Shown here: piece by piece, positions 9,301 through 56,200 of the stretch | How the letters are laid out: every line of letters begins with the position of its first letter | Numbering within the stretch: the stretch's first letter is position 1 | Assembly (NCBI GenBank): GCA_030704615.1 | Contig: CM060732.1 | Coordinates: forward strand, 46,686,001 to 46,750,000 | DNA length: 64,000 nucleotides | Direction of reading: 5' to 3' | Source: Takakia lepidozioides | Taxonomy: Eukaryota > Plantae > Bryophyta | Notes under the pieces: model-generated | Database searches by the model: none | What the model was told of the DNA's origin: nothing | Seen by the model: only the letters and a program-made list of their open reading frames with translations | Made by a program: the position numbers and the translations under genes

Positions 9301-9773
9301 ATTCTTTCACATTTGATGAGCTGAAGCAAATGAATTACTTGCACGCAGCCTTGTCAGAATCAATGAGGTTATATCCGTCAGTTCCCATTGACACCAAGGA
9401 GGTGGTGGCAGATGATATCTTACCCGATGGAACAGCAGTATGGAAAGGAAGCCGCCTCATGTACTGTATCTACTCAATGGGCCGCATGGAGAGTATCTGG
9501 GGGAAAGATTGCCGGGAGTACAGGCCTGAGCGATGGTTGAGAAGTGGAATTTTCATACCAGAGTCTCCTTTCAAATTTGCTGTCTTCAATGGAGGCCCAC
9601 GCCTGTGTCTTGGAAAGGAGATGGCCTACCTCCAAATGAAATCAGCCGCCGCTGCTGTGATTCGAAACTACCATGTCGCCCTTGTACCCGGGCATAAAGT
9701 AGAATACAAGCTGTCCCTCACTTTGTTTATGAAGCACGGTCTTCAAGTGACCCTCCATCCACGACGTCAATAA
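6365..9773 (+). CDS. Cytochrome P450, CYP86 family (probable fatty-acid omega-hydroxylase), 524 aa
   Basis: Exons 6365-6657, 6976-7227 and 8744-9773 (1575 nt, phases consistent, GT-AG). N-terminal TM plus GPIVWPVVG hinge, NVEYVLKTNFANYPKG, DLQDVLLRYTFDNIC, I-helix AGRDTS, ESMRLYP (ExxR), PERW, heme motif FNGGPRLCLG. These match CYP86-clan signatures, closest to CYP86A/B by recall. Confidence 0.93.
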
Positions 9774-22755: not shown

Positions 22756-24068
22756 TATGTAGGCAACAAAGAGAACTAGCAACATAGTGTAAATGGCATA
22801 CACCACCTTTTTTCTTTTTTACCTTTTTTGGATGGAATGGAACCCATGAACTGAATTAAAGGCTGGAAAAAATAACCACAAGGAGGCCTTGACGAGTTAC
22901 AAGGGGAAATTAGCAATGGGGAGGTTACTTTGAAGGAGCTTGATTTTCTCCTCTCAACTTGGTACTTATTTGAGGTACTATATAACTTTCTTATGGTACC
23001 TATTCCATGTTTTGGAGGCCTTGGAGCCGGAGATAGAGTAGAGCCCTCCCCTACTTTATATAACTTAGCCTCTGGGGTGAAGAGACATCATAATTTATGC
23101 TCCCTTGGGGAGGCATCAAATATTTAAATATTTATTTGTACCATCTCAGGGCGGCATGTCCAGCCCTATGAAGCCCACATTGGAGCTTCTAGAAGGCTAG
23201 TCCACACCCCCTGTCCAAAGACCAAACTCGACGCCTCGACACACGTCGTCCTCCCTTGCACCTCCCTATTGTCGCTCCCACCGTCTCTAGCTGTTGGGTG
23301 CTTATAGCCATTGCTTCATTTTTTTTTTAAATTATTTATTTTCCCACTTTTTGTAGTATACATTATTTTTATCTTTATTTTGGGCATTATAATTTCTGAA
23401 GTGGGAACTGGGAACCTAAGTTTCAGCTTGCCAGATTGTAAGTTGACGTGGTGCTGACAAAGCGAGATGGAGAAAGTTTTTTTCTCGTCACGAAAAACTA
23501 TTGGGCAGACGGGCAGGATGAAAAACTTAAAGGTTTGTTTGTGTAACGTTGGGCTGGCCTGCCATGAGGAATGATAGCTGTGATGACCCGGGGAAGAAGA
23601 GAGAGTAAGTTGACGCGGCAGGACCGGAGCACAAGTCGTGGTCAACGAGGGTTGACCAGTCCGTCCCCCCTATATTATGCCGCCCTGCGCTCACTCTCTC
23701 TCATTCCAGCCCTCCCATCACTTCTCTTCCCCACCCGCTCTCCACCACAGTCCAGAGCTCGATCAACAGCTCTTTGAAGATTTTCCTGCAGCTCACTGAC
23801 ATTTCAGCGTTTGAACTGCGAATTCTACATCTGTTCTCTATTTTCAGCTGCCTGCATCACCAACATCTGTCTCTAGGACTTGTATGATAAATAAAGTGAC
23901 TGTTCTGCAGGCTTTGGAATACTCATAGATCTATCTCTCTAGAAAACGGGGATCGAGATATTCTCTGTTTGAGAAGTACAATTTGGGCATTGAAAACAGA
24001 ACCTGTTGATCAAGAGTGAGTGACAGGCCATAGATTCGACAGATCGGGTCTTCACCCAACAGCATAAT

Positions 24069-25816
24069 ATGAGTCTAGTGAAGGAGATGATACCTGAGCC
24101 GGAGCCGTTCGATTACATTGAGAAATGTAGCTCGGAAGGGCGAGAGAAACAGACGGTAATATCCGATTTGGATGGCACCCTGGTCAGAGGGCGGAGCTCA
24201 TTTCCCTATTTCATGCTGGTGGCATTCGAGGCCGGCGGCTTTTTGCGTTCTCTCCTCCTCCTCTTCTTCGCCCCCGTTGCTTGGGTCCTTTATCACTTCG
24301 TCTCAGAAGCTGCAGGAATCCAGGTGTTAATCTTTGTCACCTTTGCTGGTCTCAAAGTGCGTCAAATTGAGAGTGTAGCCCGCGCGGTTCTGCCAAAGTT
24401 CTACTGCGAGGATCTGCACCCAGAGACATGGCGTGTGTTTTCCTCCTTTGGGAAGCGCTATGTGCTGACTGCCAATCCCCGCATAATGGTCGAGACCTTT
24501 GCAAAGGAGTATCTGGGTGCCGATGCGGTACTTGGGTCCGAGATCGAGGTGACCAAGAGCGGGCGTGCCACAGGTTTCCTGAAAGCCCCCGGTGTCCTTG
24601 TGGGTGTGAAGAAAGAAAACTGTTTGAAAGCAACTTTCGGGGACGCTGCACCTGACGTTGGCCTAGGCGACCGCAAGACCGACTACCCCTTCATGGCTCT
24701 GTGCAAGGTGAGATCCAGTTCTGCCATCCTCCCGCATGCTTCATTAGCGGACGTAGAAAGACTTGATTGACGAGAAAGACTTAACTGTTCACTGTTCAAA
24801 AGAAAATTGTATCATCTCGGGCACGCAAACAAGCAGGCTAACAGAAAACTGCACCCTACAGAGTTCGCCCTCAAATAGCTACATCTGACCTGTGGAATAT
24901 TCTTGATTGATGCTTGCAGGAAGGCTATGTCGTGCCTGCCATCAAGGTAGAAGCTGTGCCAAAGGAGAAACTTCCAAAGCCGATCGTGTTCCACGACGGG
25001 CGTCTTGTGCAACGCCCTACTCCACTCAACGCTCTTCTCACCCTCGTCTGGATGCCTATTGGTTTCATTCTTTCCGTGTGTCGGATTGCTGCATCGTCTT
25101 TGCTCCCCATGTCCATGGTATACTACGCTTACACTGCCCTTGGAGTGCGTGTAAAGGTCAGGGGAACACCCCCAGCTGCAGTGAAGGATGGCAAAACGGG
25201 AGTCCTATTTATCTGCTCCCATCGGACCTTGTTGGACCCAATCTTCCTGTCGATTGCCCTTAGGCGACCCGTCTCAACAGTCACATACTCCATTTCACGT
25301 GTATCTGAGGTCCTTTCCCCAATCAAGACGGTTGCTCTGACTCGCAACAGAGAGCAAGATGCTGCCAACATCAGCAACCTTTTGAAAGAAGGAGACTTAG
25401 CCATCTGTCCAGAGGGAACAACATGCCGAGAGCCATTTCTCCTACGCTTCTCAGCTCTTTTCGCCGAGCTGACGGACAAGATCACCCCCGTGGCGATGCT
25501 CAATAGAATGTCCATGTTCCACGGCACGACTGCCACAGGGTGGAAGGGCATGGATCCTTTCTTCTTCTTCATGAACCCAAGTCCTGTCTACGAGGTTACA
25601 TTTTTGAACCAACTGCCTGTGGAACTTACATGTGCGGGTGGAAAGTCATCGGTTGAGGTAGCAAACTATATCCAAAGGGTTATTGCAGGGACACTGGGTT
25701 TCCAGTGCACAAACTTCACTCGCAGGGACAAGTACAGGGTTCTCGCTGGGAGTGAGGGTACCGTGCCCGCCAAGAGCAAGTCGCGATCTCCCGACAAGCA
25801 GCTTATCAGTAGCTAG
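24069..25816 (+). CDS. GPAT: Glycerol-3-phosphate sn-2 acyltransferase/phosphatase, GPAT4/6/8-like, 511 aa
   Basis: Exons 24069-24707 and 24920-25816 (phase-0 GT-AG intron). HAD motifs DLDGTL and GLGDRKTD are intact; acyltransferase motifs HRTLLD and [10 protein letters not shown]; [10 protein letters not shown]; DPFFFFMNP. Confidence 0.95.
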
Positions 25817-26479
25817 AACTTCGTGTTCCAGAACCTGGGCCATCATACTCTGCAACCCAACTCTGAAGGAGGCTGTTTTATCTTGCACAAATTTCGTGAT
25901 TGGGTGTTTACAGGATCGACTTGACTCGCTACTAAACTAGATTTTGGGCTGCGAGCTGCAGCCATTCATAGAATCCGAGTTTCTCAATTTTTGGGATTTC
26001 TTTCAAAGAGAGAGGGCCCCAACTTTAACACAGTCACAGAGCCAATGCTAGGCTGCGTTAATACTCAAAACTTCACTCTATTAACTCCATCTGAAACATT
26101 AATATGCAGTTTTAAGAACCCCAAAATTTAGAACTTAAATTGCACTTCCGCTTCTACTGTACATACAGTAAAAATTTGCGTACATGTTTCTCTTGAAGTT
26201 AGTAAAAAACGATACATTCAAGTTCATGAGTGAAAACTCCAGAAAGTGGATTTTGTAGAAGTCGAAATATAATATATTCCCCAAAGAGTTGCTGGGAATT
26301 TGTACTATGACTCCCCAGCAGAAGATAAAACGTTTTCCCAACTCTCATATGCAAGGCACATGCTACGACAGTCATTCATGAAAAGTTTAAATGTGTTACA
26401 AGTCATACGAGCCACGTCTGCACACTCTGATTTACTCCCACGCAACCTGCTTACGTCGATTTGCATCCCTGCGACCGAG

Positions 26480-27856
26480 CTACCCTCCTACTTTGGGCGA
26501 ATCTCGCACATGATTTTCCAATGCAGCCAGTTTAATCTGGTTCTGTTGTAGTGTCATCTCTAACTCTTGTAATCTCTTCTGTAGTGACAGCACTATCTCC
26601 TGCCAGTTTGTTCCTTCATCCGATGCAGGAGGCAGCGATATTGGCAAACCCGAGTCTGTGACATTCCCAGCACTCGGTACACCGGCGTCGGATTTCATCG
26701 GAAGACGAGGCAGACCGTCTGCGATATATCCAGCATTCTGTATTACCACGTCGATTTACTTCCCAGGTAAGCAACTCCATATCAAGATTATGTCGTAGGT
26801 AAGTCTTCTTGAAAGTACATTGGGTAGTATCCACTGACAACATCTGCAACTAGACAACGAAATCACTAGACAGAAAGTGAAATGAACTGAACTACATCGT
26901 TAACATAGATGGGCTAACATAAGGAAGGTCCTTTCGAGTTAGATTTGACGCCATCCTAGCCCCATCCCACGCTTCTGGGAGGTATATAGATAGATCTGGG
27001 TTTATACAGTTGTAAAGTTTTTGGGTTTTTCCCAGCTTTTTTCGAGCGGAATCCTGGAAGATGGCCTCAGCACTTTTTAACGATGACGGAGAGGCTGATC
27101 CCGGCCCAGAATTCGACCTTTGTGGATGCGAGACCAGCTCACGCTGGAAAGAGAAAAAATAAAAAGGAAAACTTATAACCAAACTGACGAGTGTTTGATT
27201 TGAGACAAGGTTTCTCCACATGCCCATGGAAGGAGAGTAGGGGAAAAATAGAAGTCACCATCTAACATGGTAAAGGCCCAGAGTACAGGGTAACAAAGGA
27301 AAATGGAATATTAACCAAAAAATGATTATGAACAACTTAGAGAAAGAACATATTATGCCCGCTATGTAACGTGATCTCGAGCGATCACATCGGAAAACCA
27401 AGTGTACCAAATTTCAAGCTGGTCGTGGCCCTCAATTTCGCTCGCACCTATTGTAGAGAAGGGGAATTGATTCTGTTCTCTGACCTGAGTATAGGTCTCT
27501 TTCTGATCAGCTCCAACGCTATGCTCTTCCCCATGATACACCTCGGTCGTGGAGTCAACGGAAGTCTCTTCTGTCATAGAAGAAGACCAAACATGTTCTA
27601 CTTCCTCCCCCGGCTTCGGGTGCCGGTGCCATGTTCTGGTGGGATCCCAATCATGCCTGTAATGTGTCGCCGGCCACAACTGGAGTGCGAGGAAGCTTGC
27701 ACAGATAATAACAGCTATGTAAGGTAACCCAGCCCAATGTCTTGGGCTGTCTTCTAAGCCTTCTGGTAATCCCACTACTCTAGTGGACCCTCCATTACTT
27801 CTCGTATGTCTCCGTGTGGTCTGTGAGCTTCCCCTTTGTGGATTGTAATCTGCCAT
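26480..27856 (-). pseudogene. Unknown gene, copy A (N-terminal TM anchor, C-terminal coiled coil); exon-1 donor disrupted
   Basis: ATG at 27856, MADYNPQ...LPYIAVIICASFLALQLWPATHYRH. A 15-nt segment (27353-27367) replaces the G of the GT donor seen in copy B and introduces TAG. Downstream ORF 26480-26749 has a heptad pattern. Confidence 0.55.
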
Positions 27857-28263
27857 GGCGTTCAAACTGTGGTTCGTGATCAGTACCGTCTCTCTTTTGG
27901 CCTTCTTCTCCCTCCGCCTGTGATTGCATCTAATTGTGAGCGTCTCTTTGTTTGTGAGTGAATATTCCTCTTCTCTCTGTGCACACTACATAATCATCTT
28001 TAGAAATGGCCCAAAATCATGGCTATCATCACCATCTCTTCTAAGTGGACCCAGTACATAACTCTCTTTCGTTCTTTCTTCTTTCTCTCGTTTGTTTGTG
28101 ACCTCCTGAGCAGTGCAAGAATGTACGTACAAGCGGCCACACTCGCCGGCACGCGTCAGCACAACAGACAAACGAGGCTGCCGGCCACCCAACTCACGAA
28201 ATGTCAAACTTTCCAACATAACAAACATCGATATATAATAATGTGGCCAAAGGACGTTGGCAC

Positions 28264-32574: not shown

Positions 32575-35500
32575 ATGGGGAAAGGGGGGAGGAGAAGGGC
32601 GCAGAACCAAAATCCTAGACAAGCTGGGGGAACTCCTGGAGATGGAGGCCCCCCGAATCAGAGGCAACAAGGGGGTAGAGGGGGAGGCCCACAAAATCAG
32701 TCACCTCAGCGTCACCGGGCTGGCCCTCCACCATGGAACCCGGCAGGAAATGTAGACCGAACGCCGGCTCGCCCGCTTCCGGAAGTCGAAGAGGAGGACA
32801 ATGACAGCAACTGGATCACCGTTGGTAGGGGGCGGGGTCGGGGTCGGCAACTTGGGCAACCTCATGCTGTCGATGGAACTTATAACAACCCCCTAAATGA
32901 TCCTGCAGTGTTGGACAGTACTCTTGAGAGACCTGTCGGATGGGAAACACGAGAACAACGGATTAACGCAGAGCATCATCACGTCCATGGTGGGAATTTT
33001 GGTGGGGTTTCATCAACTCAATCACAAGGCGGATATAATAATCCTGCGAGGTTTGCTCGATCTGGTGGCCGGGGGGAAGGATCAGATTCGGGTAATCGGT
33101 CGGGTCAAGCAAACCAAAACAATGCCTGGCGTCGCCCTTCCGCCAATGTAGACCGTGAAGGCTTCTTCGATTCTGGCCGCTTTCAAAATCCTCAACCATC
33201 ACAATTACAAAGAGAAGAAGTTCGGCACCATCAAATCCATGGAGCAGAAACCTCTCGACAAAGGGCCCAGACAGGTTATATCTCTCATGCTCTCTCACTG
33301 GGGAGGATAAATCTGTGACTGCTTATGAGCTTTTCTTAGGGGATTAGGGTTAGGTTAGGGGATTATCCTAGGGAAACAGGGTCTAGATTTCTAGTATGAT
33401 AGAAACGGTCTGTTGTTTTAGTTTGTAGGGCTCCCCATTGCACATCCTCACTTGGACTAGGTTGCACACGGGTTCTCCCTAGAAAGGAGCTCTCTAGAAG
33501 AGCTTGCAAGGCATTTCATACCTCTCATTGACCACGTGTACTTTCGAAACAGTATTGGCTGGCTTCCGATGCTTAGATTACGTGTTGTAAAGTGACTCCG
33601 TTTGAAGCTTCGTAACCCCCTTCCAACGTCTTTCAGTTGAGAGTTTTCGTGAAAACGCTTAGTGATTCCTCCATGGATCTCTTTCCCGAGTGAACACTCT
33701 CTTAGTATTCTGCGACCTCATTTGGAGCTCCTTTATTTTAATCCGTCAAGTCTTTGCAGGCTTGCATCACGCTATAAATTCTACATGAACGTGTTTGAGC
33801 ATACAAAGTAAGTTCGAACATATGGAGCTGACTCGGAGCCCATAACTTGAAACCTTTGTAAAAATATTCTGAAATTTGGTGGGCTTGCGGACATGCCATC
33901 AATGAATCCTTCTGGAGTCCTGAGTGAACCCACTCATATCTCCTTATGCACCCTCGGAACTTCATTTCGAGAGAGGGAGTGTCCCAATTTAATCACGTGT
34001 GAGAATTATATGCAAGCTGCCTTGCCTAGTGATTCTATTAAGCTTCTTGGGGAATGAGGAACTACTCGGCCTGGATGTCATACTTGTTGTTGAAGCTGTA
34101 TATATGGAGCCCATACCTTTGTAAAAGTCTGTATAATATTCACAAGACAGCTGGCTTGCGGGCGCAAGCCATTGAATGTGCATGTGGGTCTTGAGCAGGA
34201 GTCAGAAAACTCCAGCTAAGTAGTACTCTTACTTTTCAAACATCAGTTGGAGCCCTTGCAGACCGAGCCTTTCCTGAAATCCTGCAGGCTCTGCAGGGCG
34301 TGCATGTGAGCCAGATACTCTATGCGTCCTTAGGCATAGAGTATCCTCTTGTTTGGGAATGAACATACTTCAATTCCATTCATGAACATCTTTCTCATGC
34401 ACTTCTTTGATTCCATCACTAATACTAACACACCTGACTCATCTTTTGCCCTTTCCTTCTATAGCCCCTTCACCTCGAGCCCAACCCGGTTACCGTACGA
34501 GGCCGACTGGACCTCTTCCGGCCCCTTCAAACCCACCCGGCTCCTCAGCCCCTGCGTTTCCATCGCAGCCTCCTAGCCCACCTCAAGAAGCATCCACTAG
34601 CCAAGGGAGCTCTGGTTGGCTACCCGATGGCATAACCAATGCCCTCTCCACCCTCACTGGGGGCATTGTGGACCCGTCCACTTCCAATATAGTCTATCGA
34701 ATCCCTCCCCGCCCTCCCAGAGCAGGCACCTTGGGAAAGGTACCAGAATACCATACCCCATACCACTAATCATGCTAGATATAAGATTTCACTAATTACC
34801 GCATCCACCTGCACACCAGAGGCATTCATAGCTTTGAGTCCTGAGCTCTGAAGGAAAGTGCAATTAGGCCTCATTTTTCAGCACAATGACTCAGATGGAT
34901 CAGTTGTCTAACATCTAGTAATCAATTGTCCATACCTTTGTTTCATGTGCATGCTTGCAGGTACTACATGTGAGGACAAACCATTTCAAGTGTATAGGAT
35001 TTAACTTTCCATTACTCCACCAGTACAAATTTGAAATAACACCCCTAGAGAGAGACTTGGTGAAGCGAAAAGCAATCAAGAAAGCATTTGAAGATGCACA
35101 CCTGCAGGGCCTGCTCAAGAATACACGTCTGGTCTACGATGGCCGTTCGGCGATATGCACAGCGACGCCCTTACCGCAAATGGAGATGTCTGTTAACTTC
35201 ACCTACATTGAAGGGTGAGGTCACTCCCCTTCCATCTCTCGCAAGTCTATGAGCATTTCAAATGATGTTATTTGTAAAGTCTAGCACATTGTGACTCAAC
35301 GGTGATGGTTCTGCGTACACAAACCGTGTTAATAGTTGGTGAACGCATAGTTGAATCGAGGCATCTCTTACTGCACATGATAATTTCTAACTGTCAATCA
35401 AACTTGTAAGCTTGCTCAAGTTTTTTTTTTTTTTTTTTTGGTTATACATCATGTAGCCAGAACCAACCACCAAGGAACTACGCGGTGAAAATCTCACAAA

Positions 35501-38500
35501 AGCCACAGCTCGCTAGGGGAAACGAAGCAGATCAAGACGACGAAGACGGTGGTGCAGGGACTGACGATTCAAAGCTAAGCGGCGATCAATTACAACGTTT
35601 ATTAGAGGGAAATGCAGCCGGAGGCCATTCAGCCTACATTAGAGCGTTGGATAATGTGGTGAGGGAGGGCAGTAGCAGGCATACCCAATTTGGTCGCAGT
35701 TACTACAACTCAGAGTTCGGCAGCACTCCTTGCGCGAAGGGCCAAGTGGCATTATTGCATGGCTACTTCAAGAGCTTGCGCCCTACTGGGCAAGGTTTGG
35801 CTTTGAATGTGGACATAACCACAGCCATGTTTCATACTGACACTGGTGCAATCGACTATATCTCTGGCATTTTGAAGGACTGTAAATTATTACAGCCCCG
35901 AGATGATCTAGCACACATGAGGTTAGCGTAATCTCCCATTTCAACCTTGTAATATAACTCACGAGTGTTGTCAGTTTTAACTTGGTCATCCCTTGGATCA
36001 ATTTTGTTGACCATTTCACTACTAGAAGACAACCAACATTCAGCCCAGTGGTAAGGTCATGAGCTGCTTCACTCGTGGGTTGGGGGTTCAGATAAAGGTG
36101 TCCAGTGTCCACCTTCCGTTGGGAAGGCAGTAGGTCATACCATAAGTTACGCTTGCTTAGACAACGCCTTCACATTTTTGTTATGTACTAGATAAGCATT
36201 ACTGTACTGTATGTAATGTTGTGCAGGGAAGCTCTACTACAAGTTATGCAAAACGTAATTATATCTGTAAGTCATTATCCTGGAAATCAAATTCGAACTT
36301 TCACTGTAATAGGTTTGTCGGAGCTACCCACTCGTGCTATGATGTTTGAGGTTGCAAACTCCAATAATCCAATCAATTTGGTGGACTACTACAGAAGCAC
36401 ATATGACAGGACCCTCAAGTATGTAAACCTACCATGCCTGTCAGTGCGGGCCAAACGACCAACCTTCTTCCCCATTGAATTGTGTCGTATTGTAAAAAAT
36501 AAGAGGTACAAGGGGAGATATACAGATGAAATGAACGAGAAAAATACTGTAACCTCAAAACTCGACCCAAAAAAACGGCTGGCAAGGATTTGTCAGATGA
36601 TGGCAGATTGCTACCGCGAAACAGCTCTCAGCTACACGTATGTACTGATTTCTTCTTAACCGGTTTTCAGTTGCAGGCTCTTTTCTTCGGTACTAAAACT
36701 GCTTATGTTCATGTATTAAGATGTTGAATATAGTGGGAGGCTAACAATTGTAGAGTCATGGAAATCATGCAAAGGTCACCAAGAGAAAGCTTTAAATTAT
36801 AAACTTATATTGAAGTACCACTACAAAGCACTTTTTGCTCGTCTTCCTCGTTTCACATGAAGTTTGACTTTGAATACACTGACGAGACTGTGTGTAAATT
36901 CCTTCCCATGACACAGGGATGATCATTGCCAAGAATTCAATCTCAGATTTTCGAAAGAACCCTCTATAGTGGACGCCAGGATTCTACCTCCTCCCACACT
37001 CGAATTCAGGAGAGGGATGACCGTTACTCCAGTAGGTGGAGGATGGGCATTTAGTCAGAACGTGTTCTGGGAAGGCAGTGACATCCAATGGTGGGGGATG
37101 ATTAACTTGACCGAGGACTACAACGAAGAATTCTGTGTTGGCTTTGCAAAGGACCTCAGCCAGTAAGCTCTGTCTTAACTACAGCGAACCAAGTAATTTT
37201 AACTTATCCGCTTGAGAAGTCATTGTATTGAATCTAAAGACGTCCGGACCTTCCAATTGATTAGCTTCCTACCACAAACTTTGCAACTGCAAACACTGAT
37301 GAAAAAAATGTATGCGTACAGTTCTTAATATTGGATTTACAACATGTAGGCTTGTTTCTTTGTTTGCAGGAGAGCACGTTCCATGGGATGTAAATTGATT
37401 GATAAGTTCGCATATCTTGACTGGAATCCGACAGTTGATAACGTTGGGGGAGGCCCACGCGAGATTTATATTGAGAGAGGGCTACTCGAGATTTATAACA
37501 CAATTAAGGCTGGCATGAAGTCCAGAAAAAGTAAGATCCCCAACGTGCAACTCATCGTTGTACTCATCGACGAGAAAAAGAAAAGCCCATACTACAATGA
37601 GATTAAACGGATAGGAGACTCCATTCTAGGTGTTGCCACTCAAGTACTTGCCATGCAAACTTTGTGCGGTAATAGGAGCGGTGGGTCAAACTCTTACTTT
37701 GTCAATGTAGTGTTAAAGATCAACGGCAAAACTGGGGGTCGGAATGTCAGATTATCTGGCGGTTCTAATGTGAATTTGCCCAGCATTCGCTCTCGCACCT
37801 TTATTATTTTTGGGGCGGACGTCACCCACCCGGACGCAGGTGATAGTAGCAGCCCGTCGTTGGCAGCGGTTGTCGCCAACATTGATTATCCCGACTGTGG
37901 TCGTTTCATATCTAGGATTCGCAGTCAACCCAATCGTCAAGAAATCATCACAGACTTGGGTGAAATGGCAGTCGAGCTCATCAATGAATGGAAATCCGCC
38001 AACAACAATCATTTGCCTGATGTACTCTCTTTCTCCCTCTCTTGTTTTGGGTTGCTTGTTGAAGGCCCCACGTTGTAAAGTTACATAAATTCTTCATTTC
38101 ATTTCTTTCTCTCGAGTTTCCAATGAGGCTTACCCTGATATTACACATCATTGCAGCTCATACTGTTTTTTCGAGATGGTGTGGGCGAAAGCCAGTTCAG
38201 GGAAGTGTTGCGACAGGAAGTGTCCAAGCTCAAGTTGGCAGCTCAAAGTATACAGTCTGGATACGACCCAAAAATCACCTTTGCAGTGATACAGAAGCGC
38301 CATCACACTCGCATTTTTCATCGGCAACCTGCAACTACAAATATACCTGCGGGCACCGTTGTGGACACCGTCATTTGCCATCCCCGCGAGTTTGATTTCT
38401 ATCTATGCAGCCATCCTGGAATGTTAGGCACCAGTCGCCCTTCTCACTACCATGTTTTGTGGGACGAGGTTTCTTTCACGTAAGTGTTTTAACTTGTTTC

Positions 38501-38961
38501 TCTCTTTACAGTAGTCGGGCTGAGAGAACTTGTGTTCTTAAAAACAACATAATTATATTTCTTCTAAGTCTACACAGTAGCTGGATTCCTTAGGGCGATC
38601 TAAAGTCATCCACCTCTACATGAGCACAGTCTAATACCAGTTTCGACGATATTGACATGGTGAATTTGATCGATCCAGGATTGATGATTTCGAGATCCTC
38701 ACATACAATTTGTGCTATCTCTTTGCGCGGTGCACTAAAGCAGTCTCCATGGTGGCCCCAGCCTACTATGCACATCTTGTGGCCTTCAGAGCTCGGGTTC
38801 TCTATCAGGCTGCCAAAGCGCGTGCAAGGATGGAGGGCCGTGGCCCACAACAAAGAGGAGGGCCGGGGGGCAGGCGAGACCCAGCCCCACCCATGGCTCC
38901 CCCTGCCATTGCTTTGCCCTCCATCCATCCAAATCAACTCAACCAAATGTACTTTCTTTGA
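32575..38961 (+). CDS. AGO: Argonaute protein, divergent, 1202 aa, catalytic tetrad intact
   Basis: Exons 32575-33274, 34465-34739, 34961-35214, 35457-35921, 36227-36637, 36917-37162, 37370-38021, 38157-38479 and 38679-38961 (3609 nt, all GT-AG, phases consistent). Motifs [26 protein letters not shown] (YVNLPCL...FPIELC), [34 protein letters not shown] / RQEII / RDGV / YYAHL. Confidence 0.93.
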
Positions 38962-40365: not shown

Positions 40366-42502
40366 AGAGTCACTTCTCCTTGCGGCTACTGCCCCCTTTT
40401 GGGTGTCTATAACAAAAAGTGTAAAGGGGGACACCATGTGACCGCTAAGAATAGAGGGGGCGAGGGTACTTCCTAGGGGACCTAAGGTGCGTTTGAAGTG
40501 CCGGATTTTAGTTGGCGTTTGTCGGTGATAATAGTTGTGAGTGAACGGAGTGCCGTGAGATGGGAAGAATGGGAATTTGGAAGTTATCGTGTATGTCCGT
40601 GATACTAGCGTTATGAATGTCACCTCGAGTGCCAGCTGTGATGACAGTTAACGGGCCGGTTTTCCAGCCACGCCTTCGGAGTGCAAGGATAAGTGAGGCA
40701 TATTTTTGCCGTTTTTCTAAGATTGAATCATTTGGATAACGATCATGGCAAAATGTGAATTCAATGAAATGGATGGTGAGTTGTGGGGATGGTGAGGTGG
40801 GGGGTAAAGTGTTGATAGGTAGACCTTGGACAAGGAGTATGTTCGGGCAAAGTCGAGTGGGGCATGAGCATGGTGTTTGGGTACATATGCATGGTAGTAG
40901 TCATGGAGGTACTGAGTGGTTCGAGTGGCCGTCCCTGGTAGGTGCCTGCGTTCATGAGCGAGAACCAACGGGTTTCAGCACGTTTTAGAAAGAGCTTGTG
41001 GAGGTGCCAGACTGCCTGGTTATGACGCGTGATATGCAAGCCATGTATAACTGGGTGTGTACATTGGCTGAGGAGATGTGGCCAAGTGTCACGAGCTTGG
41101 TGGGTGGTTACACATAACGGGCAATATGGGGATGGGAACAGATGTGGCCAGAAGATGTGTTTGCGCTGGTGGCCCATGTATTGGGCATATCGGAATTTGA
41201 GTGTTTGTCGAATTTGTGCGTCGGTGGTGGCTTTGGTAGCCAGAAATGATTGGAGAGTTTATGGTGCAGTACATTGGATTGAGTCCATTTTTGGATGTGT
41301 ACTTTGGTATGGCTGATGGAGGCTGCCGCTTGTTTATTTGTCTCTCTGGTCAGAGTGGTCAGGAGGTTTCGGACTGGTTTGGGTGCAGGGGGGTCCGGAA
41401 CGGGGTGTATGAACCAGAAGGGATGGGTGTGGGCGATGTGAATAGGGTCGTTCGAGGGTTCAACTATGGGTTGGGAGGCGCCGAGTTGGGCGAGTAGGTC
41501 TACTTCTTCATTACCATGGATGTCAGTATGCGAACGGACTTTGAGTATATGGACTGGGTGGCCTAGGGAGATGGCCCTCTGGACAATAGCGGCAATGAGG
41601 TTGCGGTCGGGATGATGATGATGGGCAGAGGGGTGGGAGATGTGGTTGCGAATGAGGAATAGTGAGGTAAGGTTGTCGGTGAAGATGAGTGTGGGGGGAG
41701 GGGGGAGGTGTCAAGTACAGAGAGGGCGTCATAAATGGCCATGAGTTCAGCCCGGAGGATGGTGGCAGGGCCAAGGAGCCTGAGGGCAACGCCTTGACTG
41801 GTGGCAGCGTGATAGATTCCATACCATGCGTTAGGTTTGGTGAGGGATCCGTCAGTGTAATGTGAATTGGCCAGTGGGTATTTGGGGATGGTGTTTTGTT
41901 GATATATTGTAGGGATTGGGGGTAGAGGTGTTGTTGGCGCGACCTGGGAAGGACGTGGTGTCGCAATGTTCCAAGCTTTGTTGGTTTTGATCCGAGACAA
42001 TGTGGTGGGTGCATGGGTGTGGGAGAGGATGGTTGGATAATGGATGGTGGCCTTTATTTTATGAGTGATGGTGAGCAATTGTTCGAGCTGAGAAAAGAAA
42101 GATGGCGGTATGGTTGTATGCCGGGGGTTTTGGATGTGTAGAATCAGGGTTAGGGTGGGTTCCTTCCGTTTGAGATATTTGGGAAGAGGAAGGGTGTGAA
42201 TATACTTAAGCTGGTTTGGGTCAATTGTGGCGAGCAAATTGACCCCTTCTGGGACTTATAGAAGAGGGTGAGAGATATTAGGAGAGTTTTGTTGTATGAG
42301 GATGAGGATTGTGGATGCAGTAGGAGAGGAGTGCGCATCAAGTTTTGCCCATTGAAGAGCTTCGTGAGAAGGAGAACCAGGTGGAGGATAGGCAAGGCCT
42401 CGGCCTTCCCAAGTGTGCTGGGTGGCAGTACCAGTGGCTCCAAAGATACTGTCTCTGTGGTGCGGGCTAGAGAATGTGGGCAATGCCACAGGGCATGTCA
42501 GT
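40366..42502 (-). mobile_element. 5'-truncated non-LTR retrotransposon with RNase H, CCHC and restriction-like endonuclease (Dualen/RandI-like), decayed
   Basis: Across frameshifts: RNase H YTDGS...RAELMAI...IFTDN...KVRSH...GNEEVD (about 41870-41490); CPLC...H...C zinc finger then RHN (41140-41020); RLE LCPNIL (degenerate LRPDIL)...IEFTFCHD...KRQKY...L...GW...TAGTRG (40860-40615). No RT or APE in the window. Confidence 0.82.
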
Positions 42503-42937: not shown

Positions 42938-45154
42938 TGAAGCGAGACGTTACGTTTGTTTTGTTTTGTTTTGTTTTGTTTTGTTTTGTAGCGTCGTTGA
43001 GATCTCCCAAACCGCGGGGCCAGTGCGGGTGCTTGGTGCCGTTGGAAAGCCCTCGACGAGGAGGGGTGCACCGGCTTGGTCTCATGATTTTTGGACAAGC
43101 GGCGTGGGAGATGTGGAATTCCAAGTACTTTTGGTCGCTGGAAATTCACAAAAACTAGCAAAAATGGCAAAGTGGGCATTTCTGTGACAATGGTTGGAGC
43201 CTCGACGGGAGAGATATCACGGAAAGGTCTCCGGTTCAAATCTGGTCGTAGGCTCTGTGGAAAAAAACTTACTTAGATGACATTAGACACTTGGGCCAAC
43301 GGCAAAGGCTACCCTAGAGGTTGCATTTGGGTCGACATAGGAGACGCACTTTGATACATAGGGGATTGCACTTGGGCTTAGATCACACTGGACACTTGGG
43401 CCAATGGCACAGGCCACCCTAGACATGGAAGACGTACTTGGATACTTAGGAGATTGCACTTGCGTTAAGATGATCCACTAGATACTTGGGCCTCTACATG
43501 GGAGATGCACTTGGGCTTAGATGGGCCTCGACATATGAGACGCACTTGGATACATAGGAAATTGCACTTGGTCTTTGATTTCAATTCATCACGCATGGGC
43601 CAACGGCATAGGCTACACTAGAGGTCGCAGTTGGGCCTCAACATAGGATACGCAGTGGGGATACATAGAAGATCTTACACTTGGTCTAAGATGACACTGG
43701 ACACTTGGACATGCTACCCTAGAGGTTGCATTTGGGCCTCGACATAGGAGATGCACTTGGATTCATAGGGGATTGCACTTGGACTTAGATGATGACACTG
43801 GACACTTGGGCCAATGGCATAGGCTACCCTAGAGGTCGCATTTGGGCCTCGACGTAGGAGACGCACTTGGATACATAGGGGATTGCACTTGGACTTAGAT
43901 GATGACACTGGAGACTTGGAAATTATGGAAAAATAGCAAAGTGGGCTTTCCGGGAGCAATGACTGGCCCTTCATGTGGCAGATTTGGAATTTCAAGTACT
44001 TTGGGTAGCTAGAAATTCACAAAAAATTGCAAAGTGGGCATTCCTGGGACAATGGTTGGAGCCTCGACGGGAAAGATATCAAGGAAAGGTCTCCGGTTCA
44101 AATCTGGTCGTAAGCTCTTTGGAAAAAAAACTTATTTAGATGACATTGGGTCATTGGAAATTCGGGGAAAATAGCAAAAGTGGGCATTCCTCGGAGAATG
44201 GTTGGAGCCTTGATGGGAGAGACAACAAGGGAGAGGTCTCCGGTTCAAATCTGGTCATAGTCTATGTGGGGAAAAAAATGATTAGATATGGCTAAATCAT
44301 TAGACTTAGATGACTTAGATGACAGTGGACACTTGGGCCAACGACACAGGCTACCCTAGAGGTCGCACTTGGGTCTCACTTAGGAGACGCACTAAAATAC
44401 ATATGAGATCTTGCACTTGGGCTTAGATGACACTGGGCATTTGGGCCAACGACACAAGCTACCCTAGAGGTCGCATTTGAGCCTCGATGTAGGAGGCACA
44501 CTTGGATATATAGGGGATAGCACTTGGAGATATCAAGGGAAAGGTCTCCGGTTCAGATCTGATCGTAGGCTCCATGGAAAAAAAAATGATTGGATATGGC
44601 TTGCTTCATATATTGATGCACTTGGACTTAGATGACACTAGACACTTGGGCCAACGACACAGGCTACCCTAGTATGAATTAAGACAATTTGTTTGTTTGT
44701 TTGTTTGTTTTGTCATGTTGAGATGTCCCAAACCGCGAGGCCCCAGCACTCCTGCTTGGTATTGTTGGAAAGTCCTCGACGAGGACGGGTGCACCAGCTT
44801 GGTCTCATGAATGGACCTGCGGTGTGGGAGATACCTAATTCCAAGTATTTTTGGTCGCCGGAAATTCACAAAAAATAGCAAAAATGGCAAAGTGGGCATT
44901 CCTGGGACAATGGTTGGAGCCTCGACGGGAGAGATATCAAGGGAAAGGTCTCCGGTTCAAATCAGGTCATAGATTCCGTGGAAAAAAATTGATTAGACTT
45001 GGATGACTGAGATGACATTGGACACTTGGGCCAACGGCAAAAGCTACCCTGGAGGTATGGGCCTAGACATAGGAGACACACTTGAATGCATATAAGATTG
45101 CACGTGGGCTTACATGACCCTGGACACTTGGGCCAACGGCACAAGCTACCCTAG
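42938..45154 (+). repeat. Satellite-bearing repeat element array (units about 105-115 bp, gcacttgg subrepeats)
   Basis: Repeated gacacttgggccaacggcataggctaccctagaggtcgcatttgggcctcgacataggagacgcacttggatacat. A shared head (atgaa...(ttttg)n...gttgagat.tcccaaaccgc) occurs at 42938 and again near 44673. Confidence 0.9.
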
Positions 45155-48172: not shown

Positions 48173-49014
48173 GCCCAAGTGCAATCTCCTATGTATCCAA
48201 AGGCATCTCCCATGTGCGTCTCCCATGTCGAGGCCCATCTGAGTCTAGTGTGCAATCCCCAATGTATCCAAGTGCGTCTCCTATGTCAAGGCCCAAATGC
48301 AACCTCTAGGGTAGCATCTTCCAGTGTCATCGAAGCCCCCAAGTGTAAGATCTTCTATGTATCCTAGTGCATATCCTATGACGAGGCCCAAGTGCGACCT
48401 CTAGTGTAGCCTATGCCGTTGGCCTAGTGTGAAGAATTGAAAATCTAAGACCAAGTGCAATTTCTTATGTATCCAAGTGCGTCTTCTATGTCGAGGCCAA
48501 TCTAAGTCCAAGTGCGTCTCGTATGTCGAGGCCCAAATGCGACCTCTAGGGTAACCCCTGCCGTTGGCCCAAGTGTCAAGTGTCATCTAAGTCCCAGTGC
48601 AATCCCCTATGTATCCAAGTGTGTCTCCTATGTCGAGGCCCAAATTATGCGACCTCTAGGGTAGCCTGTGTTGTTGGCCCAAGTGTCCAATGTCATCTAA
48701 GTAATTTTTTTTTTCCACGTAGCCTACGACCAGATTTGAACCGGATACGTTTCCCTTGATATCTCTCTTGTCGAGGCTCCAACCATTGTCCCATTAATGC
48801 CCACTTTGCCATTTTTGCTAATTTTTTGTGAATTTCCATCGACCAAAAGCACTTGGAATTCGACATCTCCCACACCGCAGGTCAAAAAATCGTGAGACCA
48901 AGCCCGTGCACCCCTCCTTGTCGAGGGCTTTCCAACGGTACCAAGCATCAAGGCTGGGGCTTTGCGGTTTGGGACATCTCAACGTGACAAAACAAACCAA
49001 ACTTCTTGCTTCAT
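48147..49014 (-). repeat. Inverted copy of the satellite-bearing element at 42938-45154
   Basis: Reverse complement of the same units and the same head (...gacatctcaac...aaacaaacc...cttgcttcata). A further head fragment lies near 62300-62400. Confidence 0.9.
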
Positions 49015-50559: not shown

Positions 50560-52550
50560 TTATTGTAAAGGACTCAAGTGAATGTATGTGGGCAAGCCCG
50601 AATTTAATAATAACGATACAAAAAAAAATTAAATAAAAAATTGAACCCAAAACCTGGATGGTAGGTAGTGCCAACTTCGTGGGGCCACATTATTATATAT
50701 CGATGTTTGTTATGTTGGAAAGTTTGACATTTCGTGAGTTGGGTGGCCGGCAGCCTCGTTTGTCTGTTGTGCTGACGCGTGCCGGCGAGTGTGGCCGCTT
50801 GTACGTACATTCTTGCACTGCTCAGGAGGTCACAAACAAACGAGAGAAAGAAGAAAGAACGAAAGAGAGTTATGTACTGGGTCCACTTAGAAGAGATGGT
50901 GATGATAGCCATGATTTTGGGCCATTTCTAAAGATGATTATGTAGTGTGCACAGAGAGAAGAGGAATATTCACTCACAAACAAAGAGACGCTCACAATTA
51001 GATGCAATCACAGGCGGAGGGAGAAGAAGGCCAAAAGAGAGACGGTACTGATCACGAACCACAGTTTGAACGCCATGGCAGATTACAACCCACAAAGGGG
51101 AAGCTCACAGACCACACGGAGACATACGAGAAGTAATGGAGGGTCCACTAGAGTAGTGGGATTACCAGAAGGCTTAGAAGACAGCCCAAGACATTGGGCT
51201 GGGTTACCTTACATAGCTGTTATTATCTGTGCAAGCTTCCTCGCACTCCAGTTGTGGCCGGCGACACATTACAGGCATGATTGGGATCCCACCAGAACAT
51301 GGCACCGGCACCCGAAGCCGGGGGAGGAAGTAGAACATGTTTGGTCGACAGAAGAGACTTCCGTTGACTCCACGACCGAGGTGTATCATGGGGAAGAGCG
51401 GAGCGTTGGAGCTGATCAGAAAGAGACCTATACTCAGGTCAGAGAACACAATCAATTCCCCTTCTCTACAACAGGTGCGATGAAAATTGAGGGCCATGAC
51501 CAGCTTGAAATTTGGTACACTTGGTTTTCCGATGTGATCGCTCGAGATCACGTTGTATGTTCTTTCTCTAAGTTGTTCATAATCATTTTTTGGTTAATAT
51601 TCCATTTTCCTTTGCTACCCTGTACTCTGGGCCTTTACCATGTCAGATGTTGACTTCTATTTTTCCCCTACTCTCCTTCCATGGGCATGTGGAGAAACCT
51701 TGTCTCAAATCAAACACTCGTCAGTTTGGTTATACGTGTTCCTTTTTATATTTTCTCTTTCCAGTGTGAGCTGGTGTCGCATCCACAAAGGTCGAATTCT
51801 GGCGCTGAGGCCATCTACTAGGATTCCGCTCGAAAAAAGCTGGAAAAAACCCCAAAAGCTTTGTAAGATATATCTATATATCTCCCATAAGCGTGGGATG
51901 GGGCTAGGATGGCACTCGAAAGGGCCTTCCTTATGTTAGCCGATCTATGTTAACGATGTAGTTCAGGTCCTGTCTAGTGATTTCGTTGTCTAGTTTCAGA
52001 TGTTGTCAGTGGGTGCTACCCAATGAACTCGAAGACTTACCTACGACATAATCTTGATATGGAGTGTTACTTACCTGGAAAGTAAATTGACTAACTTAGC
52101 GGTAATACAGAATGCTGGATATATCGCAGACGGTCTGCCTCGCCTTCCGATGAAATCCGACGCCGGTGTACCGAGTGCTGAGAATGTCACAGACTCGGGT
52201 TTGCCAATATCGCTGCCTTCTGCATCGGATGAAGGAACAAACTGGCAGGAGATAGTGCTGTCACTACAGAAGAGATTACAAGAGCAAGAGAAGACACTAC
52301 AACAGAATCAGATTAAACTGGCTGCGCTGGAAGAGCATGTGCGAGATTCGCCCAAAGTAGGAGGGTAGCTCGGTCGCAGGGCTGCAAATCGTAAGCAGGT
52401 TGCGTGGGAGTTAATCCGAGTCTGCAGCCATGGCTCTTATGACTTGTAACATCATTCAAACTCTTCATGAATGACTGTCGTTAGTATGACAAGTGTGCCT
52501 TGATATAGGGGAGCCCTAATAATACAAAGGAAAGTTCCCAGCAGCTCTTT
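50560..52550. repeat. Right arm of the inverted segmental duplication
   Basis: Reverse complement of 26283-29090 without the hAT insertion. Confidence 0.95.
51075..52368 (+). CDS. Unknown gene, copy B (single TM near the N-terminus); possibly truncated
   Basis: Exon 1 is 51075-51554 with a GTATGT donor. Putative exon 2 from 51765 has a 33-nt deletion relative to copy A and TAG at 51819-51821. A downstream coiled-coil ORF ends at 52368. The full splice model is uncertain. Confidence 0.5.
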
Positions 52551-53267: not shown

Positions 53268-56200
53268 TCAACTTGTCTGGCAAGGAGCCTGATCCCCAGC
53301 CTCAATGCAGCCATCCTCCTCATCGTCTTCCTCATCCTCCAACTCATCCACCTTCTTGCTCTCATCGTTGACCCGCCGCACAAACTGCCCTCTATTTCGG
53401 GGTCGCTGTTCAGCCAGCCGCTTTCGACTCATGTACCTTATCTTCTTTTCGAAGAACCTGTCTTTCCGCTTCTGCCTAAATTTGCTCAACGCCACCTCCC
53501 GCCTCCCAGCTTGCTCCAACTTGTTCCCAGTTACAGGGTCACCTGGCATTGGGGACCATGCGAGGGGAAACTGGCTGTTCAAATGGGAGACTGGCAGAGT
53601 TATCGGGTAAAAAGAGAATGCATTAGGGGGTAGAAGGCCGTGACTAGGGGGCATCAATTGGACAGCTCCGATCCCTGGATAAATGCTAAGCGGGCCCTCA
53701 TGTGGCAATTGGGGTACAACATGCAGACCCGACTGCATTACAGCTGGAGAGTAGAGTGAGGGCTGCACAAAACCAGGTGGAAGAAGGGAGGAACTCCCAA
53801 TGCCGCCAATGGCACCAGCCAACCCACCCTGTATGCCACCTTGGGACTGAATCTGCTTGACCGTAGGCTGATCACCTTGAGGATACCTCATCACTGGATT
53901 GCATGGTAAAGATGGAGTAATCCAATGGCCGTGATTACCGCAGGTATCTGCATCCCCTATCCCACTGTGACTCCATCCATGAGTAGACCCTGGCGTTGCT
54001 GCCTCCCAATGTGAAGGGCCAGCTGAATGCCTAAGGTTTTGGTCTTGTACTACGAGAGGCACGTCCTGTGGGATGCTGTATCTATGCTGCCCATCTACTG
54101 AACAATCAAGATTCCCCATGCACTCAATGGAAGGGCATTCAGTTGCAAAGCTATCATTTGCCATCCTGTCATCCAGGTGGCTTCCACCCCTCATGCGATT
54201 GCTTGCAGGACTTTCAAGCACCGCACGTTCCTGAAAGCACTGTCTACTTGTTGCCCGGTCATGCACGTGAGTTCCACTTGCTGTCAATCCATGCACAGGG
54301 GCTCCATCCGCTGTATGTGCCTGCGTGTGCTTTACAGTTGTTGCCCGTTCGGTCACAACCCGTGCATATGTGAGAAACGCAGATGACCCAGGCACTCTGA
54401 GCTCACTCCTTTTTGGCAGTTCTGGAAGCGATACTGCATTGACCATCAGATGCCCCAGTCACTAACTGAAAAGACAAAAGAAATGTGATTGCAGAACTAG
54501 ACAGCAAATAGACCTGACCAGGAGACCCTCCATAGTGCTCCAGTCTAGCCCTCCCAGGGGTGTCAGTTGCTTTCGACATGGTTCATTTGTACGAGCATAT
54601 ATCAATGTGAGAGCCTAGTGAACTCGAACTCCACTTGAGAAGTAACCAAAGACTCAAAGATAGCCACATCCTCGTTAAAGGACAGCACAGCAGATGATAA
54701 GAGCATATTAGATAAGAACAAAAATAACCAGAATGTAATAACATAAATGACTGACATAGCCTGCATGATATGATTTCCGACAGGTAGCAGTGCTGTCCCC
54801 CAAATCCCACAGTGGCCTCTGGCATGTTCACACTCAGGTGCAAGTAGAGTTTTGACCTCCATACACAACCCCCGTCAATTTATGGTCACAAGCTCTGGAT
54901 TGGAGCATTTCACTGCTCTGGTAAATGTCTCAAGCACAATCTGCTTGCCTCTTGCAATCTTCCAGAACCTTAAAATCTTTTCCATCATTCAACGGGGACC
55001 ACCACACCCACCCCTCAACCATACTAGTTAGGCAATACTGCCACAATGGACCTGTAGATACCCCTATAAGTCCAATCTCAACGTGTTTGCCTGCAGAGTT
55101 GCGACACCTAGGAAAATCATGTACCACAGTGAGGGCCCTACCTGGCTTGGGCACCGAGCCTGAAGGTTCATGTGGTCCATTTGCCATCCAAGGTTCTCTT
55201 AATCCATCTGACGAAGGCTTCAACGAAAGGTCCAATGCTGGTGAGCTCTCCGACTGCATGCAGTCACAGAAACTCACAGAAACTTCAACGCACTATCTTA
55301 CACACGGACACTAACTGGCCATCACAAGCTGTAGACCGAATCTCTCCGACTGAAAGCAGTCACAGAAACTTCAATGCACTATCTGTCACATGGACATCAA
55401 CTGGCCATCACAAGTAGACCAAATATCATGATTTTGTACTCAATCAATTCAAGAGACCATTAATCCATGGGTGGGACTTCGAGATGGGTCCCACAGCTTT
55501 AATGAATGTGATGCCAGATAAGAAACAATTTTGTGGCAGTGACAGAAGAAGTACCAGATTTGCACACTCTAAGGAATCCTAGAACTTAGTCGTGGCAGAC
55601 ACCAGGTCTGTCAATTCTGAACATCAAATATATATGACAAAATAGTCAGTCCGTTGCAGATTCTCATGTGGGATTTGGCTCTCCACAAGATCAACTGAAT
55701 TTCCCTCTCAATAGACGCAACAAGAGATACAGAGAAGACATACCAATGTTTGGCTACCATGCTCCATAGAATTGACAACAAGAGTCTTGCTCAGGCTGTC
55801 TTCTGAAAACAGGTCAGTGCTCAGAGATTCACTTGTGTCAAGACAGTCGATAACTGATGGCGGGTCATTGATATTCAGACTTCCCCTTATGAGCTGCCTT
55901 TCACTCAACCCCAGCTGTATGGAAGAAGAACAACAACAAATCAGTGAAACGTTTTTTCCTTAAAACTTCCAAGTTCAAGTGGTGCACCCTCTGAATGAGA
56001 TCTGTACTGTCCAGTCCATGGATGTCTAGATACCTATTCACGTACTTTTGGTCATGATTAATTTAGTCTAGTCTGAGAGAAAAAATTGAAGTACCACTTT
56101 TCATGCACTTAACCGGAACACACAAGTAACCCAGACACAAGGGCAGAACAAATCTTTTCTGTCCACATGGCAATCCCAACCAGACCAAAGTTGGTCGCAC

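What the first reader, a model, noticed from the sequence alone, without database searches (positions are those of the whole stretch)
32575..38961. Divergent, intron-poor Argonaute with a mosaic of clade features
Seen: only 8 introns; a G/R/Q/P-rich N-terminus of about 320 aa with a GRGRGRG box and two GW dipeptides; an acidic insert in the N domain ([10 protein letters not shown]); a MID specificity-loop region [14 protein letters not shown]1-like KRHHTR and AHLVAFRAR but a short AGO4-like loop after KRHHTRIF; an Arg/Gly/Pro-rich insert before a C-terminal MYFL. The slicer tetrad and QF-V motif are intact. Established: plant AGO1- and AGO4-clade genes usually have about 20 introns and AGO2/3/7 have very few; plant AGOs typically end MF(Y/F)C. 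Inference: a lineage-specific AGO class, possibly with its own guide preference.
Basis: partly seen in the sequence, partly recalled or inferred. Interest (0 to 1): 0.72.

Follow-up and report, generated by a model that had tools for sequence, protein, structure and literature searches.

The report
Fast-evolving bryophyte AGO2/7-like Argonaute
This is an intact nine-exon Argonaute gene that groups with the already described, fast-evolving moss members of the plant AGO2/7 family; it likely encodes a small-RNA-guided RNA cutter used in defence, but the spliced transcripts seen so far would not make the full-length protein.

Summary
The observation mostly holds: nine exons, eight GT-AG introns, an open 1202-aa frame, an intact DEDH tetrad and 5'-phosphate pocket. 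It is not a new class. The gene groups with Physcomitrium 'argonaute 7-like' and Sphagnum proteins (100/100) inside the AGO2/3/7 clade (98/94), and joins AGO2/3/7 without those moss rows (97/94). Five of eight introns match moss intron positions exactly. Moss AGO2/7-like proteins are in print (Xia 2016; Bélanger 2023). The 'mosaic' is mostly ancestral or labile sequence; only the 22-residue acidic insert is private. The branch is very long (42% best identity). A position outside AGO1 plus AGO2/7 is not rejected (AU p=0.054), and the tree had no AGO4 or AGO-like rows. Contigs from both runs laid skip exon 2, which breaks the frame, so full-length expression is not shown. A TOC1 neighbour suggests a liverwort or Takakia host. 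Verdict: new member of a known, untested moss subclade; likely a defence-type slicer.

The parts
32575..33274 (+). Exon 1: ATG and G/P/R/Q-rich N-terminal extension (aa 1-233), GR box at 32824-32847
   Evidence: donor 33274 used in spliced contigs of both runs; contigs cover 32828-33274
33239..33241 (+). Internal ATG in frame with exon 3 when exon 2 is skipped (would give an 889-aa AGO without the extension)
   Evidence: six ATGs lie upstream of it within the contig-covered part; use not shown
34465..34739 (+). Exon 2: Pro/Ser-rich end of the extension plus the conserved P-x-R-P..G lead-in to the N domain; skipped in the spliced contigs
   Evidence: intron 2 position shared with Physcomitrium; skip joint 33274|34961
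34961..35214 (+). Exon 3: N domain
   Evidence: Pfam ArgoN E=2e-10; both ends used in contigs
35457..35921 (+). Exon 4: end of N domain with a private 22-aa acidic insert ([10 protein letters not shown] at 35524-35553), L1; alternative frameshifting acceptor at 35509
   Evidence: acceptor 35509 in a listed joint; acceptor 35457 in one X2 contig with only 28 letters on the 5' side
35922..36226 (+). Intron 4, retained in one contig (stop after aa 567)
   Evidence: X2 record 8 spans 35508-36292; position shared with Physcomitrium and Sphagnum
36227..36637 (+). Exon 5: PAZ
   Evidence: Pfam PAZ E=1e-21
36917..37162 (+). Exon 6: L2
   Evidence: Pfam ArgoL2 E=9e-7, below the curated cut-off
37370..38021 (+). 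Exon 7: MID (specificity loop 37563-37595; Y859, K863, Q875, K900, K904) and start of PIWI (D934 at 37818, E975 at 37941)
   Evidence: AlphaFold pLDDT 82; Foldseek best hits hAGO2 and AtAGO10
38157..38479 (+). Exon 8: PIWI core (D1008 at 38175, QF-V, KRHHTR and short loop)
   Evidence: Pfam Piwi E=9e-42
38679..38961 (+). Exon 9: PIWI end (H1141 at 38773), basic Ser/Thr-free linker, MYFL and stop

Best explanation
The gene is the orthologue of the long-branch moss AGO2/7-like Argonautes and likely encodes a working small-RNA-guided slicer, most likely used AGO2-style against viral or transposon RNA. SHOWN: open frame, full domain set, catalytic and 5'-phosphate residues, grouping with moss AGO2/7-like proteins, shared introns. 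INFERRED from the family: it loads a ~21-nt guide, anchors the guide's 5' phosphate in the MID-PIWI pocket, holds the 3' end in PAZ and cuts the paired target with DEDH; a 5'-A bias is likely, as in Arabidopsis AGO2 and the AGO7-miR390 pair. INFERRED from rate: orthologues only 37-42% identical look like the fast AGO2 branches and unlike AGO1 or AGO7, which favours defence over development. INFERRED from RNA: in the sampled material the transcript is spliced unproductively (exon 2 skipped, intron 4 kept), so the full protein is likely confined to other tissues or conditions. Odds: orthologue of the moss proteins about 0.95; inside AGO2/3/7 about 0.85; functional slicer about 0.8; defence as main role about 0.5.
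For: ML tree LG+C20, 37 rows x 792 columns: window + Physcomitrium + 2 Sphagnum 100/100, inside a 17-row AGO2/7 clade 98/94. With moss rows and 9 others removed it still joins AGO2/7 at 97/94. AU rejects taking the window out of that clade (p=5e-5) and rejects joining the moss group to AGO1/5/10 (p=0.024). 12 columns are shared privately with Physcomitrium and Sphagnum against a mean of 0.22 and a maximum of 3 for 528 control pairs. Introns 2, 4, 6, 7 and 8 fall at the same aligned residue, with read-through letters fitting the same phase, as exon ends read from genomic read-through ORFs of the moss genes. 106 of 113 near-invariant columns are kept, more than in Physcomitrium (97/113) or two AGO2 rows (0.90-0.92). 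NCBI names the Physcomitrium protein 'argonaute 7-like'. DDH triad is typical of seed-free AGO2/7-like proteins (10.1101/2022.01.18.476847, section 10). End branches: AGO1 0.07-0.18, AGO7 0.16-0.23, AGO2 0.56-0.80, window 0.97 on a 1.01 stem.
Against: No contig shows a full-length productive splice; the joints seen break the frame. AU does not reject placing the moss group outside AGO1 + AGO2/7 (p=0.054); the AU groups were chosen after a first tree was seen. No AGO4/6/8/9 or AGO-like sequence was in my trees (none among the fetched proteins). You et al. list no P. patens gene under AGO2/3/7. The MID loop has the length of AtAGO4's (8 residues) rather than AGO2/7's (6). Loop sequence is not the main determinant of 5' choice in AGO4/6 (PMC9825178, passages), so the 5'-A guess rests on clade alone. 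No direct evidence for a defence role.
Confidence: 0.55

Rival explanations
1. Same gene identity, but an AGO7-like developmental role: it would load miR390 and start phased tasiRNA production from TAS3.
For: Proposed as a hypothesis for moss AGO2/7-like proteins (10.1101/2022.01.18.476847, section 10). DDH triad as in AGO7. The PIWI stretch resembles AtAGO7 by eye, and the top Atlas cluster for exon 7 is 'argonaute 7-like' (0.96). TAS3 loci exist in mosses including Takakia (PMC5907777, passages).
Against: miR390, TAS3 and ARF are present in liverworts, where no AGO2/7 was found in two Marchantia genomes, so the pathway can run without it. AGO7 proper arose in seed plants. Very fast evolution is unlike AGO7.
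Confidence: 0.2
2. The moss group is a separate, fifth land-plant AGO lineage with its own guide class, drawn to AGO2/7 by sparse sampling.
For: AU p=0.054 for a position outside AGO1 + AGO2/7 + Closterium. Stem 1.01. It keeps an animal-like stretch after the stacking Tyr. MID loop of 7-8 residues is unlike vascular AGO2/7. Lack of the insert after the catalytic Glu is shared with animals and so is not a derived AGO2/7 mark.
Against: 98/94 and 97/94 support for AGO2/7 in two taxon sets under a site-heterogeneous model. It is not pulled to the long outgroup rows. A published tree with all three major clades reached the same placement.
Confidence: 0.12
3. The gene is decaying or makes no full-length protein; at most it yields an 889-aa form from ATG 33239 that lacks the N-terminal extension.
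For: Both runs join exon 1 to exon 3 (stop after 247 aa). X1's main contig also uses acceptor 35509, and X2 holds a contig with intron 4 retained.
Against: No stop or frameshift in 1202 codons, all splice sites GT-AG. 94% of near-invariant columns kept. Exon 2 encodes the conserved lead-in motif and has a moss-shared intron. Only two runs, contigs only, tissue unknown. Six upstream ATGs precede 33239 in the contigs.
Confidence: 0.13

Closest known systems
Physcomitrium patens 'protein argonaute 7-like' (XP_024400268.1 / PHYPA_021482; P0430, P0298); probably the Pp3c17_350 of Xia et al. (identity of the two ids inferred, not checked)
   Same: Same 100/100 clade; introns 2, 4, 7, 8 at the same positions; long extension (424 aa); same tail length; ends in Leu; DEDH.
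   Different: 37% identity over 781 columns; no acidic insert; 40-aa KRHHTR segment against 21; 7-residue MID loop; Ser-rich tail.
Sphagnum AGO2/7-like proteins (CAM6038706.1, CAK9867345.1, KAH8935588.1; P0127, P0297, P0453)
   Same: Best identity (42% over 678 columns); introns 4, 6, 7 shared, intron 5 within about two codons; Ser/Thr-free basic tail; shared private PIWI residues.
   Different: One more intron in MID (near window aa 885); 44-52-aa KRHHTR segment; ends MYWC; annotated models lack the N domain.
Lycophyte and fern AGO2/7-like proteins, seed-plant AGO2 and AGO7
   Same: Same clade; no insert after the catalytic Glu; basic MID loop; DDH as in AGO7 and seed-free members.
   Different: 32-37% identity; 6-residue MID loop; seed-plant genes have very few introns (recalled, not tested).
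AGO-like clade of hornworts, lycophytes, ferns and gymnosperms (You et al. 2017, PMC5569507)
   Same: Also a long-branch clade absent from angiosperms, with intact catalytic residues.
   Different: Its marks in Fig. S3 (ADVSHPR, an insert after the catalytic Glu, a ~20-aa LGW insert) are all absent here.

Membership tests
Eukaryotic Argonaute, slicer type | N-L1-PAZ-L2-MID-PIWI order | tested here: met
Eukaryotic Argonaute, slicer type | DEDH/D tetrad and 5'-phosphate pocket residues | tested here: met
   D934, E975, D1008, H1141; Y859, K863, Q875, K900, K904
Eukaryotic Argonaute, slicer type | Guide loading and target cleavage | not testable with these tools
   needs biochemistry
Moss AGO2/7-like subclade | Monophyly with Physcomitrium and Sphagnum members | tested here: met
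   100/100; 100/99 on MID-PIWI alone; exclusion rejected; 12 private columns
Moss AGO2/7-like subclade | Shared intron positions | tested here: met
   5 of 8 exact, 1 within about two codons, 2 without usable data; read from genomic read-through ORFs, not annotated gene models
AGO2/3/7 clade | Placement within the clade | tested here: met
   98/94 and 97/94; caveat AU p=0.054 for an outside position; no AGO4 or AGO-like rows
AGO2/3/7 clade | No insert after the catalytic Glu | tested here: met
   ancestral state, also in animals and rice AGO18, so weak
AGO2/3/7 clade | 5'-A guide preference; miR390 loading (AGO7) | not testable with these tools
   needs AGO-IP
AGO1/5/10 clade | Placement, PDNNG-type loop and insert after the catalytic Glu | tested here: not met
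   AU p=0.024
AGO4/6/8/9 clade | MDVSHG, KNHHTK, insert after the catalytic Glu | tested here: not met
   by eye against AthAGO4 and AthAGO6 rows of PMC5569507 Fig. S3
AGO4/6/8/9 clade | Placement in a tree that holds AGO4 sequences | not tested
   no AGO4 among fetched proteins
AGO-like clade (You et al. 2017) | ADVSHPR, FW..E insert, LGW insert | tested here: not met
   by eye against Fig. S3 rows; no such row in my trees

The most novel reading that the evidence does not exclude
The bryophyte AGO2/7-like group is a functionally distinct slicer class with its own guide specificity (longer basic MID loop, Ser/Thr-free tail, acidic N-domain insert), switched off in most tissue by unproductive splicing. 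This copy is its deepest-branching full-length member found here; if the host is a liverwort, it overturns the statement that liverworts lack AGO2/7.
Probability: 0.2. Interest if true: 0.55.

Novelty: new member of a known kind. Interest (0 to 1): 0.27.

Why it matters
The clade is known but I found no functional study of it: one paper of the library names the moss gene ids, and a 2025 review table lists no moss AGO7 mutant. This copy branches outside Physcomitrium + Sphagnum (91/75) and lacks one of their introns, so it helps date the AGO2/7 clade in bryophytes and shows 37-42% divergence between orthologues, fast for a plant Argonaute. What it loads would decide whether the first AGO2/7 worked in defence or with miR390-TAS3. 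The frame-breaking splicing is a testable lead. None of this is a new system.

Tried and rejected
No genome is held for this window, so copy number and paralogues elsewhere were not checked; the window holds one copy. One search listed two runs only, both 'RNA?' by guess; no holder is on record as RNA. Neither run has cover 3' of 36292 or 5' of 32828. The index shares (0.23, 0.21) match the laid pieces (0.234, 0.210) and not all nine exons (0.49), but a hole proves nothing and no DNA run or silent stretch was laid, so this is not used as evidence. The word-based search with exon 7 found 6 proteins among 1696 candidates and missed the moss orthologues; the HMMER library search found them. A search with the Sphagnum MID-PIWI listed 120 of 3471 hits, with Sphagnum and Physcomitrium as the only bryophytes named; the P0001 search listed liverwort AGO1s only; neither shows absence in liverworts. 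Hypotheses dropped: AGO-like clade; fungal or animal origin; GW motifs as AGO hooks (chance); Marchantia MpPIWIa/b as relatives (only expression remarks found, no sequence; untested). Rfam: 0 matches in the window. Atlas on the TOC1 receiver exon was uninformative. The exon-7 model confirms the fold but says nothing on guide choice. Searches for PpAGO5, PpAGO7, the accession numbers, and Takakia + argonaute gave nothing relevant. Supplements of the two bioRxiv phylogeny papers could not be seen; they hold the member lists that would confirm the Physcomitrium id.

Full report
GENE MODEL. Nine exons between ATG 32575 and TGA 38961 give an open 1202-aa frame with eight GT-AG introns of 135-1190 nt. 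Pfam places ArgoN, ArgoL1, PAZ, ArgoL2 and Piwi on exons 3-9. The tetrad D934/E975/D1008/H1141, QF-V and the 5'-phosphate residues Y859, K863, Q875, K900, K904 are present. Of 113 columns nearly invariant in non-moss references, 106 are kept, against 97 of 113 in Physcomitrium and 0.90-0.92 in two AGO2 rows. An AlphaFold model of exon 7 alone has mean pLDDT 82, and its best Foldseek hits are human AGO2 and Arabidopsis AGO10. The protein looks constrained, not decayed.

THE LISTED ODDITIES. The 325-aa extension is within the range of relatives (152-429 aa in ten rows). GRGRG occurs in 40 of 105 plant AGOs tested, and two GW/WG are chance (P=0.44). KRHHTR and AHLVAFRAR both occur in Xenopus AGO2, so they are ancestral. 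The KRHHTR segment is 21 aa, the shortest of my 37 full rows, equal to Arabidopsis AGO7 and one longer than AGO4; it is 40-52 aa in the moss orthologues, so it is labile. The tail is of normal length but has no Ser/Thr, as in Sphagnum. Ends without Cys occur in Physcomitrium and in AGO2 rows. Two features stay unusual: a 22-residue acidic insert in the N domain (40 aa against 18 in 30 of 34 rows), and an 8-residue basic MID loop, shared with the unnamed fragment cluster P0126 and as long as AtAGO4's.

RELATIVES. The HMMER library search with exon 7 gave an unnamed 202-aa ORF (P0126, 48%) and a Sphagnum compactum protein (P0127) as the top two hits. Searching with P0127 added S. jensenii and a Physcomitrium protein whose cluster NCBI names 'argonaute 7-like'. 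Identity over trimmed columns is 42% to Sphagnum, 37% to Physcomitrium and 29-37% to the other 33 rows. In an LG+C20 tree of 37 rows x 792 columns the window, Physcomitrium and two Sphagnum form a 100/100 clade on a 1.01 stem, inside a 17-row AGO2/7 clade (98/94), with Closterium next (98/96). A FastTree of 89 rows agreed. With the three moss rows and nine others removed, the window alone still joins AGO2/7 (97/94), on a 2.39 branch against a median of 0.6. AU tests reject removing the window from AGO2/7 (p=5e-5) and joining the moss group to AGO1/5/10 (p=0.024). They do not reject a place outside AGO1 + AGO2/7 (p=0.054). The groups were named after a first tree was seen. Row labels such as AGO2, AGO5 and 2/7-like are partly mine, from source names, motifs and placement. 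No AGO4 or AGO-like sequence was available; both were excluded only by eye against Fig. S3 of PMC5569507. Twelve columns are private to window + Physcomitrium + Sphagnum, against a mean of 0.22 over 528 control pairs.

INTRONS. Clusters of the moss proteins contain genomic ORFs that run off the exon ends. These leave or join their own spliced proteins at window residues 325, 565, 784, 1001/1002 and 1108/1109, which are introns 2, 4, 6, 7 and 8, with junction letters fitting the same phases. Intron 5 matches within about two codons in a gappy loop; introns 1 and 3 could not be compared. Sphagnum has a further intron near residue 885 that the window lacks. Whether these positions also occur in AGO1 genes was not tested, and the '20 introns versus very few' rule is recalled.

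EXPRESSION. Two runs, 'RNA?' by guess and kept as contigs, hold the locus. Both join 33274 to 34961 at GT..AG, skipping exon 2; from ATG 32575 this stops after 247 aa. X1's main contig uses acceptor 35509, also frame-breaking for the short form. X2 has that joint at depth 4.2 and a contig fitting the predicted acceptor 35457 at depth 12.4, with 28 letters on the short side, under the tool's 31-letter rule. One X2 contig spans intron 4 unspliced, which stops the frame at aa 567. Exon 2 appears only in two low-depth X1 contigs, one running 69 nt into intron 1. An ATG at 33239 is in frame with exon 3 and would give 889 aa, but six ATGs precede it in the contigs. So the locus is transcribed and spliced, and no productive full-length form was seen. 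Two contig sets of unknown tissue cannot show that none exists.

HOST. A neighbour at 53268-57086 (minus strand) has a CCT domain and a receiver exon nearly identical to the MpTOC1 row, with the LWTH form rather than the LWQH of the PRR rows shown. TOC1 is reported lost in hornworts and in all mosses except Takakia (PMC5638080, passages). With the moss-side placement of the AGO, the host is likely Takakia or a liverwort; this is inference, and a vascular host is not excluded. Earlier scan notes call the genome moss-like (AI notes, unchecked).

LITERATURE. 10.1101/090647 (passages): AGO2/3/7 holds two moss proteins, Pp3c17_350 and one of S. fallax; AGO7 arose with gymnosperms. That Pp3c17_350 is my P0430 is inferred. 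10.1101/2022.01.18.476847 (passages and section 10): 12 AGO2/7-like proteins in moss, lycophyte and ferns, none in liverworts or filamentous algae, DDH triad, tasiARF role hypothesised. PMC5569507 (passages, section 5, parts of supplements 1 and 2): four clades including AGO-like; no P. patens gene listed under AGO2/3/7. PMC7994812 (passages), PMC12884037 (passages), PMC9825178 (passages), PMC5907777 (passages), PMC11317149 (one passage), PMC5784723 and 10.64898/2026.05.18.725958 (passages on MpPIWI), PMC9135061 (passages, nothing relevant). Searches for a functional study of the moss gene found none; the library lacks most subscription papers.

MECHANISM AND VERDICT. Most likely a 21-nt-guide slicer of the AGO2/3/7 clade. 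I favour an AGO2-like defence role because orthologues diverge far faster than AGO1 or AGO7 and because liverworts have the miR390-TAS3 components without a known AGO2/7. That step, the 5'-A bias and the reading of the splicing as regulation are all inferred. It is a new member of a described but untested subclade: interest 0.27.

Noticed in passing
window 53268-57086 (-): TOC1-clade pseudo-response regulator (receiver exons at about 56241-57052, CCT exon 53268-54458); TOC1 is reported absent from hornworts and most mosses, so it narrows the host lineage.
   Followed up: partly
window 26359-28263 and 50668-52488: Inverted duplicate of about 1.9 kb (96% over 1158 nt, 87% over 724 nt) on either side of the AGO gene; each copy holds a 207-235-aa ORF, the one scanned having no Pfam match.
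   Followed up: no
window 24024-25816 (+): Two-exon acyltransferase gene of GPAT4/6/8 type (Pfam Acyltransferase; subtype recalled); a cytochrome P450 exon at 8718-9773. Both may belong to cuticle-type lipid metabolism.
   Followed up: no
window 1-1065: GC-rich satellite with a 10-bp base unit (AGCCCGTCAC) and higher-order periods of 51, 92 and 121 bp.
   Followed up: no
window 40500-42255 (-): Broken ORFs with RNase H-like text, probably a decayed retroelement; the one ORF scanned had no Pfam match. A repeat family with 110-bp units lies at 42960-45154 and inverted at 48236-49002.
   Followed up: no
window 32828: Main contigs of both runs begin at the same base, with 4 and 2 unlaid letters, at the G of a TAG just before a G-rich tract; could be an unseen acceptor, a start or an assembly break.
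   Followed up: no
P0446 against P0297 and P0127: A genomic Sphagnum ORF runs in frame upstream of the annotated start and aligns with the window's N domain, so public Sphagnum models of this gene look truncated at the 5' end.
   Followed up: partly
P0126 cluster (18 unnamed members): Exon-7-sized ORFs from unnamed contigs group with the window (89/79) and share its 8-residue MID loop and lack of the MID intron; organism unknown.
   Followed up: partly
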